Below are positions 7,865 through 13,956 of a stretch of 41,777 nucleotides of DNA, piece after piece. Position 1 is the stretch's first letter. Each line of letters begins with the position of its first letter. The notes under the pieces are model-generated. The model was not told where the DNA came from. It ran no database searches and worked only from the letters and a program-made list of their open reading frames with translations. The DNA is from a virus, in the UHGV virus genome UHGV-0060642; one strand, 5' to 3'. The position numbers and the translations under genes were made by a program.

Positions 7865-8515
7865 TTATGGAAGGTTTGCTAGTTTTGCATCGACAACTAC
7901 GCCGATGATTTTGCAGTTTCCGTTGATCTCGATCATCGGATATTGTGGGTTAAGTGGTTTTAGAAACTTCCTGCCTGCATCAATAACTAACTTCTTGAAA
8001 GTTGCCTCGTTTTCTCCTTCGAGCTTTGCAACTACCAGTTTCCCGTTACGCGGCTCTACTTCAGGATCGACGAGTATTATCATTCCTTCAGGGATACTGA
8101 GACCGGCTGGAGCCGTCATTGAGTCTCCCTTCACGTCCAACCAAAACGAATCTTCTGAACAGTCTACGGTTGTATCGTACCAGTTATCTATTGCACGCTT
8201 ATGATATGGTTCTACAGCTTCCATCCAGCATCCTGCGCTCACCCAGCTAATCAGAGGGAATGACCCTCTTGGATTATGCCTACTGTGATAGGCAATGTTT
8301 GAAAGACTTTCCTCTCCTTTCATCAGATAGTCAGGGGAACACTTCAACGCATTAGCCAGGGCGAGAAGATTCTCTCCATTTGGCTCTGTCTCAGAGCGTT
8401 CCCACTGAGATATGGCAACATTAGACACGCCGACCATCTTTCCAAGTGCGGCCTGCCTGATCTTGAGTTCTTTTCTCCGAGCGCGAATGCGCTCTCCCAT
8501 CAATTGAGTTTTCAT
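7865..8515 (-). CDS. c2: CI-type repressor, P22 C2-like (HTH plus LexA-like autocleavage domain)
   Basis: 216 aa; MKTQLMGERIRARRKELKIRQAALGKMVGVSNVAISQWERSETEPNGENLLAL... matches recalled P22 C2; S24 peptidase-like C-terminal domain (GDSM...K). Confidence 0.95.
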   Translation of the reverse strand: MKTQLMGERIRARRKELKIRQAALGKMVGVSNVAISQWERSETEPNGENLLALANALKCSPDYLMKGEESLSNIAYHSRHNPRGSFPLISWVSAGCWMEAVEPYHKRAIDNWYDTTVDCSEDSFWLDVKGDSMTAPAGLSIPEGMIILVDPEVEPRNGKLVVAKLEGENEATFKKLVIDAGRKFLKPLNPQYPMIEINGNCKIIGVVVDAKLANLP

Positions 8516-8595: not shown

Positions 8596-8781
8596 ATGTA
8601 CAAGAAAGATGTTATCGACCACTTCGGAACCCAGCGTGCTGTAGCTAAAGCGTTAGGCATTAGCGACGCAGCAGTCTCTCAGTGGAAGGAAGTCATCCCA
8701 GAGAAAGACGCCTATCGACTGGAAGTCGTTACAGCTGGCGCCCTGAAGTATCAAGAAAGCGCTTACCGCAAAGCGGCATAA
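8596..8781 (+). CDS. cro: Cro repressor (P22 type)
   Basis: 61 aa MYKKDVIDHFGTQRAVAKALGISDAAVSQWKEVIPEKDAYRLEVVTAGALKYQE matches recalled P22 Cro. Confidence 0.93.
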   Translation: MYKKDVIDHFGTQRAVAKALGISDAAVSQWKEVIPEKDAYRLEVVTAGALKYQESAYRKAA

Positions 8782-8787
8782 GCAAAT

Positions 8788-8831
8788 TGCTCTTTAACAG
8801 TCATGGTCCTCATTCCCGCCGAAATGCGGGA
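8788..8831 (+). promoter_or_regulatory. nutR: nutR (boxA plus boxB hairpin)
   Basis: TGCTCTTTAACA followed 14 nt later by hairpin TCCCGC-cgaaat-GCGGGA, between cro and c1. Confidence 0.7.
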
Positions 8832-8889
8832 ATACAACGCGCATAAGTTGATGCGCATAACTTCTTATTTGTTAAGGAAATACTTACAT

Positions 8890-9183
8890 ATGGTTCGTGC
8901 AAACAAACGCAACGAGGCTCTACGAATCGAGAGTGCGTTGCTTAACAAAATCGCAATGCTTGGAACTGAGAAGACAGCGGAAGCTGTGGGCGTTGATAAG
9001 TCGCAGATCAGCAGGTGGAAGAGGGACTGGATTCCAAAGTTCTCAATGCTGCTTGCTGTTCTTGAATGGGGTGTCGTTGACGACGACATGGCTCGATTGG
9101 CACGACAAGTTGCTTCGATTCTCACCAATAAAAAACGCCCGGCGGCAACCGAGCGTTCTGATCAAATACAAATGGAATTTTAA
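8890..9183 (+). CDS. c1: CII-type lysogeny activator (P22 C1-like)
   Basis: MVRANKRNEALRIESALLNKIAMLGTEKTAEAVGVDKSQISRWKRDWIPKF... matches recalled P22 C1; start set at the internal ATG of the longer track ORF. Confidence 0.9.
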   Translation: MVRANKRNEALRIESALLNKIAMLGTEKTAEAVGVDKSQISRWKRDWIPKFSMLLAVLEWGVVDDDMARLARQVASILTNKKRPAATERSDQIQMEF

Positions 9184-9205
9184 CAACATCCAACGAGGTA
9201 ATTAT

Positions 9206-9478
9206 ATGCGAAACAAAGGCTTTAATCCACCTGATACACACAAAGAAGCTAAGCGTTTGCGCTTCCTTCGTTCCATTGATGAAAGAACTCAAATCTCTTT
9301 TGTGAAAGTTGCCAGAACTGAGCTTCTGAAGGCTGAGGCGAGGGCGTTGCTCCCGTCTCTACCAAAAGAGGAGGGATATACGTTCATTCCAAACGCATTT
9401 CTGGAAAAGCTTCTCAAAGAAGACATATCCGTAAGTCAGTTTAACGATGTTCTTAAGGTCTTTCGTCAAGGCAGGTAG
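9206..9478 (+). CDS. Hypothetical protein
   Basis: 90 aa starting MRNKGFNPPDTH at the internal ATG of track ORF 8897-9478; GAGG upstream. Confidence 0.6.
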   Translation: MRNKGFNPPDTHKEAKRLRFLRSIDERTQISFVKVARTELLKAEARALLPSLPKEEGYTFIPNAFLEKLLKEDISVSQFNDVLKVFRQGR

Positions 9479-9480
9479 TT

Positions 9481-10428
9481 ATGAGCAATACAGCAAAAAT
9501 CTACGATTTCAGCGCCGCACACGAGCGCAGGAGCAACAGGATGGAGAACCAGAAAACTGGTTACATTCCGTTGTACCGGAGCATTCTGAAACAGTCATGG
9601 GCGAAAGATGTTTATCTTCGCACCCTGTGGGAAAACCTTCTCCTGAATGCCGCCAGAAAGCCATACAAAGCGAATTTCAAAGGTCATGAATGGCATCTGC
9701 AACCCGGTCAACTGGTTGTGACAGCAGCTGATTTAGGTCTTCAGTTATGCGACAGGCATGGCAAGCCAGCAAGCCGCGATCAGGTTGAGCGGATGCTTCG
9801 GGTTTTTGTGAAAGAGGGGATGATCTCCATTGATGGAGAGAAGCAAAAAGGTCGTGTGATAACCATCACAAATTACCATGAATACGCTCAAAAAATGGAC
9901 AATTCACCCGCACATGAAGCCGCACAAACAACCGCACATCATGCCGCACATGACGAAGCCAGCAATGGCGCGGCTTTCAGAGTACATGCCGCACATGAAA
10001 GCGCACATGAAGCCGCACAAACAACCGCACATCATGAACAAGAAGGTATTAACAAGAATATAAATAATACCCCCCTACCCCCCAATGGGGGAGGCGATGG
10101 GCAGGTTAAACCTGAACGTCGCAAGGCAGAACGAATCGACTACGAATCCTTCCTGAACGCCTACAACACCGAAGTCGGTGACAGACTGCCACACGCTGTT
10201 GCGGTCAACGAGAAACGCAAACGCCGCCTGAAGAAAATCATTCCGCAACTGAAAACGCCAAACGTGGACGGTTTCAGAGCGTATGTCAGGGCGTTTGTGC
10301 ATCAGGCCAAGCCGTTTTACTTCGGAGACAACGACACTGGCTGGACGGCAGATTTTGATTACCTGCTGAGGGAAGATTCGTTAACGGGAGTTCGGGAAGG
10401 GAAGTTTGCAGACAGGGGGATTGCATGA
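9481..10428 (+). CDS. Replication initiation protein (lambda O / P22 gp18 analogue) with internal origin
   Basis: 315 aa; position directly upstream of the helicase; central His/Ala-rich repeats ([10 protein letters not shown] twice) encoded by DNA iterons; assignment by position and architecture. Confidence 0.75.
9906..10070. repeat. Putative replication origin: iterons plus AT-rich tract inside the initiator gene
   Basis: At least four copies of (g)ccgcacatga, a roughly 30-bp direct repeat catgaagccgcacaaacaaccgcacatcatg present twice, followed by AT-rich aagaaggtattaacaagaatataaataatac. Confidence 0.65.
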
Positions 10429-11801
10429 GACAGGATATCGAAGCGAGCGTTATCGGTGGCCTGCTGATTGGTGGATTAACACCAACCGCCAGTGACGTTC
10501 TGGCAACACTGGAGCCGGAAGCGTTTTCAATTCCGCTCTACCGGAAAGCCTTCGAGGTTATCCGCAAGCAGGCGAGAAACAGAAACCTAATCGATGCGCT
10601 GATGGTTGCCGAGGCGTGCGGAGAGGAGAATTTCACGTCAATCCTGATGACCAGCAAAAACTGTCCGAGTGCCGCAAACCTGAAGGGATATGCCGGAATG
10701 GTCGCGGATAACTATCACCGCCGTCTGGTGCTGGAAATCATGGATGAAATGCGTGAACCAATTCAGAGCGGAACCATCGATACATCGAGTCAGGCGATGG
10801 ACGAGCTTGTAAAGCGTCTTTCAGCTATCAGAAAGCCCCGTGACGAGGTTAAACCTGTACGGTTAGGGGAAATCATCACTGACTACACTGACACGCTTGA
10901 CAGGCGTCTGAGGAACGGAGAAGAGTCCGATACCCTGAAGACCGGAATCGAAGAACTTGATGCCATCACCGGAGGGATGAACGCAGAAGACCTGGTGATA
11001 ATCGCTGCTCGTCCTGGTATGGGGAAAACCGAACTGGCGCTGAAGATTGCCGAAGGCGTTGCAAGCCGCGTTATTCCTGGTTCTGACGTCCGGCGCGGGG
11101 TATTGATTTTCTCAATGGAAATGAGCGCATTGCAGATTGCAGAGCGAAGCATTGCCAACGCCGGGAGGATGTCGGTTAGCGTACTGCGAAATCCTGCATC
11201 GATGGATGACGAAGGCTGGGCGCGTGTTGCTAACGGCATGAGTCAGCTTGCAGATTTGGATGTATGGGTAGTCGATGCCTCGCGGTTATCGGTCGAAGAA
11301 ATACGCTCAATCGCAGAACGGCATAAACAGGAAAATCCAAACCTGTCTCTAATCATGGCGGATTATCTTGGCCTGATTGAGAAGCCGAAAGCAGACCGCA
11401 ACGACCTCGCAATTGCTTACATCTCCGGAAGCCTGAAGGCGATGGCGAAAGACCTGAAAACGCCCGTTATCTCCCTGAGTCAGCTTTCGCGCGATGTTGA
11501 GAAGCGACCAAACAAACGCCCGACAAACGCAGATTTGCGTGATTCAGGAAGCATTGAACAGGACGCAGACTCAATCATCATGCTCTATCGGGAAGCTGTA
11601 TATGACGAGAACAGTAGCGCCGCGCCATTTGCTGAAATCATTGTGACGAAAAACCGTTTTGGCTCACTTGGTACGGTTTACCAGCGGTTCTGCAACGGAC
11701 ACTTTGTTGCATGTGACCAGGATGAAGCCAGACAGATTTGCACAGCATCAAATGCACCTGCTGCGCGTGGCAGACGATATGCACAAGGGGCGGACGTATG
11801 A
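10425..11801 (+). CDS. Replicative DNA helicase, DnaB family
   Basis: 458 aa; Walker [15 protein letters not shown], DnaB-like C-terminal RecA-fold motifs; ATGA overlap with the initiator gene. Confidence 0.92.
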
Positions 11802-13009: not shown

Positions 13010-13956
13010 CGATGACTGCGTATTACAACGAAATAGATCCGTATGCAGCGCAATGGCTGCGTAACTTAATTGACGCTGGAGAAATTGCCCCCGGTTATGT
13101 AGATGAAAGGAGTATTGAAGATGTCACACCAGGTGATTTGCGAGGATTTACCCAGCACCACTTTTTTGCAGGAATCGGAGTTTGGAGCTATGCACTTAGA
13201 AAAGCAGGATGGCCAGACAACAAGAGTATCTGGACAGGAAGTTGCCCATGCCAACCTTTCAGCTCGGCAGGCAAAGGAAAAGGGGTTGATGACGAGCGGC
13301 ACTTATGGCCGGCATTCTTCTGGCTTATTGAAAAATGCAATCCTGGCATCGTTATTGGCGAACAGGTTGCAAGCGCAGACGGTCTCGCTTGGCTCGACCT
13401 TGTACAAACTGACTTGGAAGGTGCGAACTACACCTCTGCAGGTACCGATATTTGCGCTGCGGGCTTCGGTTCTCCGCACATCAGGCAGCGATTGTATTGG
13501 GTGGCCTACTCCAACGACAAATATCAACTTTCAGCCAGAGACGCGCAGGGGAATTCAGAACCTATCTGGATGCGTGAGACTAGCGGGATGGCAAACTCCT
13601 TTAGCGAACGATGCAACAGGTTCAACGCATTGCTACAGCGGAAAAGACAAGAGCGGAACCCCAAGAATCTGCTTGAAACTTCCCGGGACGGTGAAGCTAT
13701 GTACCCATTACCGGTTAACGGCTTCTGGAGAGATGCAGACTGGCTTTACTGTAGAGATGAAAAATATCGTCCAGTTAGACCCGGCTCATTCCCGATGGTT
13801 AATGGCATTGCCAAAAGCTTGGGACGAGGCAAGTCCACACTGGGAAGAATGGCAAAGCGCAATCAAGATCAGCGAATTATTGGATATGGAAACGCAATCA
13901 ATGCAGAAGTAGCAACGGCATTCGTGAAAGTTTGTATGGAGGTTGTTAATGCTTAG
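13006..13956 (+). CDS. DNA cytosine-5 methyltransferase (apparent orphan)
   Basis: Motif I-like FFAGIG, motif IV PCQPFS, motif VI-like GEQV, motif [13 protein letters not shown], motif [15 protein letters not shown], all in this frame; no adjacent restriction endonuclease gene evident. Confidence 0.85.

What the first reader, a model, noticed from the sequence alone, without database searches (positions are those of the whole stretch)
9890..10075. Iteron array and AT-rich tract inside the replication initiator gene, encoding a His/Ala-rich repeat
At least four (g)ccgcacatga units and a duplicated 30-mer are followed by an AT-rich stretch, the classic layout of ori-lambda inside O. In-frame, the repeats encode [10 protein letters not shown] twice, so the protein linker is constrained by DNA-level origin function.
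Basis: partly seen in the sequence, partly recalled or inferred. Interest (0 to 1): 0.35.

Follow-up and report, generated by a model that had tools for sequence, protein, structure and literature searches.

The report
Phage replication origin inside initiator gene
The repeats are real and are very probably the replication origin of a P22-like E. coli phage, sitting inside its own initiator gene as in phage lambda; this is textbook in kind, but the binding-site repeats here are of an undescribed type and visibly dictate the protein's linker sequence.

Summary
There are eight 12-nt units with core CGCACA(T), in two clusters of four (9908-9955 and 9989-10036). They include a 35-nt exact duplication and are followed by the most AT-rich 33 nt of the gene (10037-10069).

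The array lies in a predicted disordered linker (aa 139-215) of a lambda-O-like initiator (9481-10428), just upstream of a DnaB-type helicase gene.

Evidence for an origin:
- Ten homologs with 60-82% identical N-terminal domains keep the units in the same register.
- Conservation follows a 6-8 nt DNA block that includes two third-codon positions. The flanking amino acids vary.
- The mosaic joint lies inside the AT-rich tract (10052-10064). The N-domain travels with the repeats, and the C-domain with the helicase or loader partner.
- P22's annotated origin occupies the same position in gene 18.
- A second class has core CG(C/A)GCAT, a mostly synonymous and concerted change, and always pairs with His instead of Asp at residue 100.

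Unlike lambda, P22 and HK97 (four palindromic sites of about 18-20 bp), the units are short, direct and 12-nt phased.

Origin activity and initiator binding are inferred, not shown. Verdict: new member of a known kind, modest interest.

The parts
9481..10428 (+). Replication initiator gene (lambda O / P22 gene 18 type), 315 aa. The real start may be ATG 9541 (M21).
   Evidence: ORF. Pfam Phage_rep_O at aa 20-132, E = 5e-15. PHROG 'replication initiation O-like' matches both halves. The gene is 98% identical to the annotated O genes of CUS-3, JEP4 and many Stx2a phages.
9541..9894 (+). N-terminal winged-helix-like domain (aa 21-138), the presumed iteron-binding domain. The class-diagnostic residues A82 and D100 lie here.
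   Evidence: AlphaFold block-mean pLDDT is 63-81 over aa 41-140, with a helix / beta-hairpin pattern. Structure search gave only weak winged-helix matches. Residues 82 and 100 co-vary with core base 5.
9908..9955 (+). Iteron cluster 1: four 12-nt units (CCGCACATGAAG, CCGCACAAACAA, CCGCACATCATG, CCGCACATGACG).
   Evidence: The register and core are conserved in ten diverged homologs.
9956..9988 (+). 33-nt spacer between the clusters, encoding (D)[11 protein letters not shown](A). The 45-nt start-to-start distance from the last unit of cluster 1 to the first unit of cluster 2 is constant in all homologs.
   Evidence: Unit offsets 24->69 or 36->81 in every homolog. S161, N162, G163 and A164 are invariant in alignment A2 and at least 90% conserved in A3.
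9989..10036 (+). Iteron cluster 2: four 12-nt units (CCGCACATGAAA, GCGCACATGAAG, CCGCACAAACAA, CCGCACATCATG). The last unit abuts the AT-rich tract.
   Evidence: The 35-nt exact duplicate of 9909-9943 lies at 10002-10036.
10037..10069 (+). AT-rich tract, A-rich on the top strand (18% GC), the presumed DNA-unwinding element. It contains the mosaic joint at 10052-10064.
   Evidence: Composition. Matches of the Klebsiella and Yersinia type end at query 584 (= window 10064). Matches of the HK97 / ST104 type start at query 572 (= window 10052). The tract is conserved in all homologs.
10070..10094 (+). G+C-rich element to the right of the AT tract: TACCCCCC occurs twice, followed by the inverted repeat CCCCC-AAT-GGGGG. 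It encodes PLPPNGGG.
   Evidence: Tandem repeat, sequence. The same element follows the AT tract in HK97 and lies inside the annotated P22 rep_origin.
10095..10425 (+). C-terminal domain of the initiator, the presumed partner-interaction domain. It is shared with HK97 gp54 and P22 gp18.
   Evidence: 96-97% nucleotide identity to HK97, ST104 and related phages from query 572 onward. 60.5% amino-acid identity to P22 gp18 over aa 190-312. Homologs with other C-termini have a lambda-P-type partner instead.
10425..11801 (+). DnaB-type replicative helicase gene (P22 gene 12 type), overlapping the initiator's stop codon.
   Evidence: Pfam DnaB_C at 1.6e-77 and DnaB N-terminal domain at 2.7e-13. PHROG 19.

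Best explanation
The region 9908-10094 is the phage's origin of replication, embedded in the linker-coding part of its own initiator gene.

Proposed mechanism, all steps inferred:
1. The initiator's N-terminal winged-helix-like domain binds the eight CGCACAT units. Because the units are direct and 12-nt phased, binding is probably one domain per unit in head-to-tail arrays on two clusters.
2. The resulting nucleoprotein complex destabilises the adjacent A-rich tract at 10037-10069.
3. The C-terminal domain brings in the phage's own DnaB-type helicase, encoded immediately downstream, as in P22 genes 18 and 12.

Because the same bases encode a disordered linker, the peptide (AH-x-x repeats, [10 protein letters not shown] twice) is largely a read-out of the DNA sites. 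The array can expand or shrink in 12-nt or 93-nt in-frame steps.
For: SHOWN BY THE SEQUENCE AND COMPARISONS

(1) Clustering. Eight in-phase units occur, far beyond chance.

(2) Gene identity and context. The ORF is a Phage_rep_O initiator followed by a DnaB helicase gene, in a cI-cro-cII-O-helicase early-right operon of a CUS-3/Kapi1/HK620-like phage.

(3) DNA-level constraint. In ten homologs anchored independently of the cores, unit phases 3-8 are invariant or nearly so, including third-codon positions. Phases 1 and 10-12 vary, including codon positions 1 and 2. In the eight homologs with the CGCACA core, 14 of 18 core third positions are invariant, against 16 of 69 synonymous third positions in the N-domain (Fisher p = 3e-5). 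The Ala codon in the cores is GCA in 53 of 69 core codons (65 of them Ala), against 48 of 234 Ala codons elsewhere in these genes.

(4) Concerted change. A second class has G at core position 5 in all units. This is mostly a synonymous GCA to GCG change, and A and E alternate freely at the preceding base. It always pairs with H100 and S/T82 instead of D100 and A82. In the D class 459 of 461 units have A. In the H class found by protein similarity 356 of 359 units have G.

(5) Mosaic structure. Klebsiella and Yersinia phages share the N-domain, repeats and AT tract, but have a different C-domain and a lambda-P-type partner. HK97, ST104 and P22-type phages share only the region from 10052 onward plus the helicase, and carry their own repeats upstream.

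(6) Positional equivalence. The rep_origin annotated in a P22 record spans its four repeats, AT tract and CCCCC/GGGGG element in mid-gene 18. Ori-lambda is described the same way in PMC3349717 and PMC7466680.

(7) The coding segment is predicted disordered, with pLDDT below 50 for aa 139-215.

(8) Array size varies in frame among homologs, from 3 to about 12 units. This parallels lambda's four iterons versus the six in Stx phages, which add 13 residues to their O proteins.
Against: - No experiment shows origin firing or initiator binding for this repeat type. No paper describing it was found.
- The units lack the dyad symmetry and roughly 20-bp size of lambda, P22 and HK97 iterons, so the lambda binding mode cannot simply be transferred.
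- The residue-100 / base-5 association corresponds to a single split in the tree of aa 81-138. That segment is physically adjacent to the array, so linkage alone could produce the association.
- The structural model is of moderate quality only (mean pLDDT 54.5).
- Recent duplication within the array inflates within-genome repeat identity.
Confidence: 0.8

Rival explanations
1. The repeats are initiator-binding sites, but they act mainly in control rather than in initiation, for example by titrating or handcuffing the initiator or by autoregulation. The site of unwinding would lie elsewhere.
For: Iterons have such dual roles in plasmid replicons (general knowledge; reviews listed). In lambda, plasmid-borne iterons without the AT tract still inhibit phage replication (PMC3349717). 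Two separate clusters could serve different roles.
Against: The last unit abuts the most AT-rich tract of the gene in every homolog. The tract and the G+C element to its right are the same as in the annotated P22 origin. No other repeat cluster of this core exists in the window.
Confidence: 0.1
2. The repeats are a protein-level feature: a His/Ala-rich low-complexity linker generated by slippage and kept for protein reasons such as flexibility or metal binding. The DNA repeats would be a by-product.
For: The segment is rich in A and H (15 A and 9 H in 44 residues) and predicted disordered. Copy number varies.
Against: - Conservation ignores codon structure. Third positions inside the core are invariant while first and second positions outside it vary.
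- His is replaced by Gln or Leu while the CA dinucleotide (core positions 6-7) is kept, so the full CGCACA core survives in the Gln units.
- Ala alternates with Glu in the second class.
- All units of a genome carry the same synonymous variant, GCA or GCG.
Confidence: 0.04
3. The region is mainly a recombination joint between modules. Its conserved sequences persist because they mediate module exchange, not because they function as an origin.
For: The mosaic breakpoint lies at 10052-10064 inside the AT tract. Intragenic recombination is visible between aa 21-80 and aa 81-138.
Against: This explains the shared AT tract but not the in-phase 12-nt units with an invariant core. It also does not explain their class-wide concerted change together with N-domain residues. 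A joint at an origin is what lambda biology predicts in any case.
Confidence: 0.05

Closest known systems
ori-lambda inside gene O (phage lambda; Stx phages 933W and P27)
   Same: - The origin lies in the middle of the initiator gene, between the DNA-binding N-domain and the partner-binding C-domain.
- Repeated sites are followed on the right by an AT-rich tract of about 35-40 bp.
- Repeat number affects protein length (PMC3349717; PMC7466680).
- The N-domain belongs to the same Pfam family, Phage_rep_O.
   Different: - Lambda has four (Stx phages six) sites of 18-19 bp spaced about 20-24 bp apart. That they have internal dyad symmetry and are bound by O dimers is my own knowledge.
- Here there are eight units of 12 nt with a 7-8 nt core, all direct, in two clusters.
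- The partner is a phage DnaB-type helicase, not a lambda-P loader of host DnaB.
P22 gene 18 / HK97 gp54 origins (P22 genes 18 and 12 module)
   Same: - The right half is the same: part of the AT tract, the CCCCC/GGGGG element, the C-domain and the DnaB-type helicase. Identity is 96-97% at nucleotide level to HK97 and 60.5% at amino-acid level to P22 gp18.
- The annotated P22 rep_origin occupies the equivalent position.
   Different: P22 and HK97 have four palindromic sites of about 18-20 bp (TTTACC..GGTAAA and TTAGCC..GGCTAA) at spacings of 20, 24 and 23 nt, and a different N-domain sequence.
Phage L gene 18 (P22-like)
   Same: The authors note six imprecise direct repeats of an 11-bp sequence inside gene 18 as the likely origin. 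This shows that short direct-repeat arrays occur in this gene family (PMC8022706).
   Different: The repeat sequence differs (TGTCCAACGGA), and the initiator is only distantly related. That origin is likewise inferred only.
Iteron-type plasmid replicons (Rep winged-helix initiators on direct repeats)
   Same: Direct, same-orientation repeats lie next to an AT-rich unwinding element. A winged-helix initiator is presumed to bind one unit each.
   Different: Plasmid iterons are about 17-22 bp and lie outside the rep gene (my own knowledge). No plasmid Rep family matched; only Phage_rep_O did.

Membership tests
Lambdoid origin embedded in the O / gene 18 initiator gene | Located inside the initiator ORF, between the N-terminal DNA-binding domain and the C-terminal domain. 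| tested here: met
   The array spans aa 143-186. Pfam Phage_rep_O covers aa 20-132. aa 139-215 are predicted disordered and the C-domain is folded from about aa 216.
Lambdoid origin embedded in the O / gene 18 initiator gene | A cluster of repeated sites followed on the 3' side by an AT-rich tract. | tested here: met
   Eight units at 9908-10036, then a tract of 18% GC at 10037-10069.
Lambdoid origin embedded in the O / gene 18 initiator gene | Repeats are inherited with the N-domain, and the C-domain with the helicase or loader partner. | tested here: met
   Mosaic pattern. Two repeat classes track residues 82 and 100 of the N-domain.
Lambdoid origin embedded in the O / gene 18 initiator gene | Four to six sites of about 18-20 bp with internal dyad symmetry, spaced about 20-24 bp apart (lambda, P22, HK97 architecture). 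| tested here: not met
   12-nt period, 7-8 nt core, and no inverted repeat within the array. P22 and HK97 do show this architecture.
Lambdoid origin embedded in the O / gene 18 initiator gene | The initiator binds the repeats and replication starts there. | not testable with these tools
   Needs EMSA or footprinting and a replication assay. No literature was found for this repeat type.
Pfam PF04492 Phage_rep_O (initiator N-domain) | Score above the family's gathering threshold. | tested here: met
   56.2 bits against a cut-off of 28.7, covering profile positions 1-95 of 95.
P22 gene 18 / gene 12 replication module | C-domain homologous to gp18 and an adjacent DnaB-type helicase gene. | tested here: met
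   60.5% identity to P22 gp18 over aa 190-312. DnaB_C at 1.6e-77 in the next gene.
Plasmid iteron replicons (Rep-family initiators) | Initiator of a plasmid Rep family, with iterons outside the rep gene. | tested here: not met
   Only Phage_rep_O matched in Pfam, and the repeats lie inside the gene. Matches in the plasmid collection are circular phage genomes or fragments.

The most novel reading that the evidence does not exclude
This is a distinct origin architecture within the lambdoid O family. Winged-helix domains would bind head-to-tail, one per 12-nt unit, rather than as dimers on palindromes. There would also be a simple recognition rule: Asp100 with Ala82 reads A at core position 5, and His100 with Ser/Thr82 reads G. 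That rule would define two non-cross-reacting origin specificities that circulate in enterobacterial prophages and could be re-engineered.
Probability: 0.3. Interest if true: 0.5.

Novelty: new member of a known kind. Interest (0 to 1): 0.33.

Why it matters
This replication module is common. It occurs in about 5% of complete E. coli genomes (280 of 5426), in CUS-3/Kapi1-type phages and in dozens of Stx2a-converting phages. No phage record inspected here that carries this module annotates an origin in it, although a P22 record annotates the origin of its related module.

Marking the origin helps in reading prophage induction and Shiga-toxin phage replication.

The region is also a clean natural example of dual coding. 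A DNA-binding-site array dictates a protein linker, including in-frame copy-number changes. The residue-100 / base-5 pairing gives a directly testable specificity hypothesis.

Tried and rejected
- Literature searches for this repeat or for origins in CUS-3, HK620 or Sf6 found only general lambda, Stx and phage L descriptions. The search for the decamer itself returned only unrelated papers.
- No solved structure is related by sequence. The structure search gave only weak winged-helix matches with E above 0.04, so no DNA-bound template was available to place residue 100 on the DNA.
- The pattern CGCGCAT(N5)CGCGCAT(N5)CG scanned in viral contigs was too unspecific. Only 25 of 120 loci encoded a homolog. 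I therefore repeated the class test on a set found by protein similarity.
- The whole-domain tree suggested several independent Asp/His switches. Splitting the domain showed this is intragenic recombination, and aa 81-138 give a single split. I therefore do not claim independent co-variation events.
- No promoter-like site was found in 9100-10500. No convincing DnaA box or IHF site lies near the array.
- Hits in the plasmid collection did not provide a natural mini-replicon that could serve as functional evidence.
- The single genome-contig scan gave only nine loci, one of them truncated.

Full report
CONTEXT

The window is a P22-like (Lederbergvirus-type) E. coli phage or prophage. Its first 25 kb match Kapi1, CUS-3, phiv205-1 and HK620 at 95-97% in mosaic pieces.

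Around the finding lies a standard lambdoid early-right region:
- cI-type repressor, 7865-8515 on the minus strand
- cro, 8596-8781
- cII, 8803-9183
- an O-type initiator, 9481-10428
- a DnaB-type helicase, 10425-11801

The initiator's N-terminal part matches Pfam Phage_rep_O (aa 20-132, 56 bits against a cut-off of 28.7). PHROG 'replication initiation O-like' matches both halves. The gene is 98% identical to the annotated O genes of CUS-3, JEP4, Gally and about 50 Stx2a-converting phages. The region occurs in 280 of 5426 complete E. coli genomes.

THE OBSERVATION

It is correct and somewhat understated.
- Eight units with core CGCACA lie on the + strand at strict 12-nt phase, in two clusters of four: 9908-9955 and 9989-10036. 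A 33-nt spacer separates them.
- Outside the array the hexamer occurs 12 times on both strands of 41.8 kb. Eight in 130 nt has a corrected probability of about 2e-16.
- The duplicated block is 35 nt and exact: 9909-9943 = 10002-10036.
- Directly after the last unit comes AACAAGAAGGTATTAACAAGAATATAAATAATA (10037-10069). At 18% GC it is the lowest 33-nt window in the gene and in the lowest 0.2% of the window. It is A-rich on the top strand.
- In frame the array encodes [17 protein letters not shown]...[20 protein letters not shown], with [10 protein letters not shown] at aa 145-154 and 176-185.
- No inverted repeats occur within the array.

IS THE CONSTRAINT ON DNA OR ON PROTEIN?

I collected diverged relatives of the N-terminal domain:
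- Klebsiella phage ST16-OXA48phi5.2 and Yersinia phage vB_YenM_29.18
- prophages in Trabulsiella, Enterobacter, Siccibacter, Superficieibacter and Sodalis

Their N-domains are 60-82% identical to the window's, and all carry the array. The unit offsets are 0, 12, 24 (and sometimes 36), then a constant 45 nt to the second cluster, whose last unit abuts CAT GAA CAA GAA GG and the AT tract.

I then aligned units by anchors that do not involve the cores.
- Phases 3-8 of the 12-nt unit (C G C A C A) are invariant or nearly so. This includes phases 3 and 6, which are third-codon positions.
- Phases 1 and 10-12 vary, although they include first and second codon positions.
- In the eight homologs with the CGCACA core, 14 of 18 core third positions are invariant. 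In the N-domain, 16 of 69 synonymous third positions are invariant (Fisher p = 3e-5).
- The codon before each core encodes P, A, T, S, C, G or R but always ends in C.
- The Ala codon in the cores is GCA in 53 of 69 core codons (65 of them Ala), against 48 of 234 Ala codons elsewhere in these genes.
- His is sometimes replaced by Gln or Leu. The CA dinucleotide (core positions 6-7) is kept in these units, and the full CGCACA core is kept in the Gln units.

This pattern is what a DNA site predicts and what a peptide motif does not predict. AlphaFold gives pLDDT below 50 for aa 139-215, so the segment is a disordered linker that can tolerate such dictation.

A SECOND SPECIFICITY CLASS

The Siccibacter and one Sodalis homolog have G instead of A at core position 5 in all their units (CGCGCAT or CGAGCAT). 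Exactly these two have His instead of Asp at residue 100 (SRDxV becomes SRHAV, at the start of the predicted helix 99-111), and Ser instead of Ala at residue 82.
- Among sequences collected up to, 58 distinct Asp-100 sequences have A in 459 of 461 units.
- A set of 52 distinct His-100 sequences retrieved purely by protein similarity has G in 356 of 359 units.
- In the His class, core position 4 alternates between C and A, which gives Ala or Glu, again showing indifference to the peptide.

For Ala units the class difference is synonymous, yet it is shared by all units of a genome. That requires selection or homogenisation at the DNA level.

One caution applies. Trees of the whole domain and of aa 21-80 interleave the classes, but the tree of aa 81-138 separates the Asp class as one clade. 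The data therefore show intragenic recombination, with aa 81-138 and the array inherited as a block. They amount to one evolutionary split, not several independent co-variations. Physical adjacency alone could contribute to this pattern.

MOSAIC STRUCTURE

BLAST against phage records shows two kinds of partial relatives.
- Klebsiella and Yersinia phages match query 25/48-584. That is the N-domain, the repeats and the AT tract up to window 10064. Beyond that they diverge into a different C-domain, followed by a lambda-P-type gene.
- HK97, ST104, HK446, several Stx phages and many Salmonella P22-like phages match only query 572-948 (from window 10052) plus the DnaB-type helicase, at 95-97%.

The joint is therefore a 13-nt stretch inside the AT tract.

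Upstream of the joint, HK97 and P22 have their own repeats. Each has four palindromic 18-20-nt sites (TTAGCC..GGCTAA and TTTACC..GGTAAA) at spacings of 20, 24 and 23 nt. These are followed by the same kind of A-rich tract and the same CCCCC(N3-4)GGGGG element.

A P22 record annotates exactly that stretch, in mid-gene 18, as a 'bi-directional replication origin similar to phage lambda'. Ori-lambda is described as four 18-bp iterons joined to a 38-bp AT-rich sequence within gene O (PMC3349717). Stx phages have six iterons and correspondingly 13 extra residues in O (PMC7466680). For P22-like phages, Casjens and colleagues note four repeats of about 20 bp in P22 gene 18 and six 11-bp direct repeats in phage L gene 18 as likely origins (PMC8022706).

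COPY-NUMBER VARIATION

Database homologs of the window protein differ in the array, always in frame.
- One cluster of three units ([12 protein letters not shown]; proteins of 284 or 264 aa).
- Two clusters, the window type. This is the commonest by cluster size, for example P0049 with 1458 members.
- Three clusters, with an extra 31-residue block (proteins of 346 or 326 aa).
- Odd intermediates.

The His class has 4-8 units. Whether the smallest arrays still function is unknown.

MECHANISM

Shown:
- the anatomy
- the DNA-level constraint
- the co-inheritance of repeats with the N-domain, and of the right half with the helicase
- positional equivalence to annotated lambdoid origins

Inferred:
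- The N-domain binds the CGCACAT units. Given direct orientation and 12-nt phase, it probably binds one domain per unit, unlike lambda O dimers on palindromic sites.
- The complex opens the A-rich tract.
- The C-domain recruits the phage helicase, as for P22 gp18 and gp12. The P22 functions are my own knowledge and are not tested here.

I put 0.8 on the origin reading. The rivals each fail to explain part of the evidence. They are control-only binding sites, a purely protein-level repeat, and a mere recombination joint (see the rival entries).

COMPARISON AND NOVELTY

In kind this is the textbook lambdoid arrangement, and membership in that kind is met on position, repeat-plus-AT layout and modular co-inheritance. 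It fails the lambda / P22 / HK97 site architecture (about 18-20 bp, dyad-symmetric, four to six copies). In this respect it resembles the short direct repeats noted in phage L.

I found no description of this particular repeat family or of its two classes in the searchable literature. That library is incomplete, and the original CUS-3, HK620 and Sf6 papers are not in it.

I therefore rate it a new member of a known kind, of modest interest. The dual-coding signature and the residue-100 / base-5 pairing are the parts worth an experiment.

Noticed in passing
window 9132-9159 (minus strand): A strong terminator-like hairpin (12 pairs followed by a T run) lies on the minus strand, overlapping the 3' end of cII. 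Its position matches the oop RNA terminator annotated in P22 and described for lambda.
   Followed up: partly
window 9481-9543: The initiator's true start may be ATG 9541 (M21). M21 is invariant, residues 1-20 are poorly conserved, and an invariant AGGAG lies 7 nt upstream. Many database homologs are annotated from that start, giving 295 aa instead of 315.
   Followed up: partly
window 10070-10094: TACCCCCC occurs twice, followed by the inverted repeat CCCCC-AAT-GGGGG, just right of the AT tract. It is encoded with rare CCC and GGG codons. Synonymous differences in HK97 and P22 keep the inverted repeat, and the element lies inside the annotated P22 origin.
   Followed up: partly
window 9956-9988: The spacer between the two clusters keeps a constant length, and its residues S161, N162, G163 and A164 are invariant or nearly so (GCCAGYAAYGGCGCGG) in both specificity classes. 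This could be a further DNA site, such as a host-factor site, or a protein feature.
   Followed up: no
proteins P0001-P0120 (homologs of window 9481-10080): The array shows in-frame copy-number polymorphism in E. coli and Salmonella prophages. There are 3, 4, 5, 8 and about 12 units, including a 93-nt block triplication.
   Followed up: partly
L214 = NZ_CP148879.1 (5555-bp circular Salmonella Infantis record): A small circular 'plasmid' record carries cI, cro, cII and the initiator's N-domain plus repeats, ending at the record start. It could be a lambda-dv-like mini-circle or an assembly artefact.
   Followed up: partly
OR850084.1 (hits H62, H136): A 2692-bp record named 'Staphylococcus phage SA 1298 Kay' matches this enterobacterial initiator gene. 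Identity is 94% over the C-terminal 393 nt and 62.5% at protein level over the full length. It looks like a mislabelled or contaminant sequence.
   Followed up: no
window 9515-9524 and 13474-13483: Two isolated one-mismatch copies of the unit occur: CCGCACACGA near the 5' end of the initiator gene and CCGCACATCA at 13474. The first is not conserved in the Klebsiella and Yersinia homologs, so it is probably chance.
   Followed up: partly
N-domain alignment of loci L001-L187 (aa 21-138): Intragenic recombination occurs within the initiator's N-domain. The tree of aa 21-80 interleaves the two origin-specificity classes, while the tree of aa 81-138 separates them.
   Followed up: partly
window 9190-9478: An open frame of about 95 codons fills the gap between cII and the initiator. 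It forms the 3' part of ORF 8897-9478. It sits where P22 orf48 and HK97 gp53 lie, and its identity was not checked.
   Followed up: no
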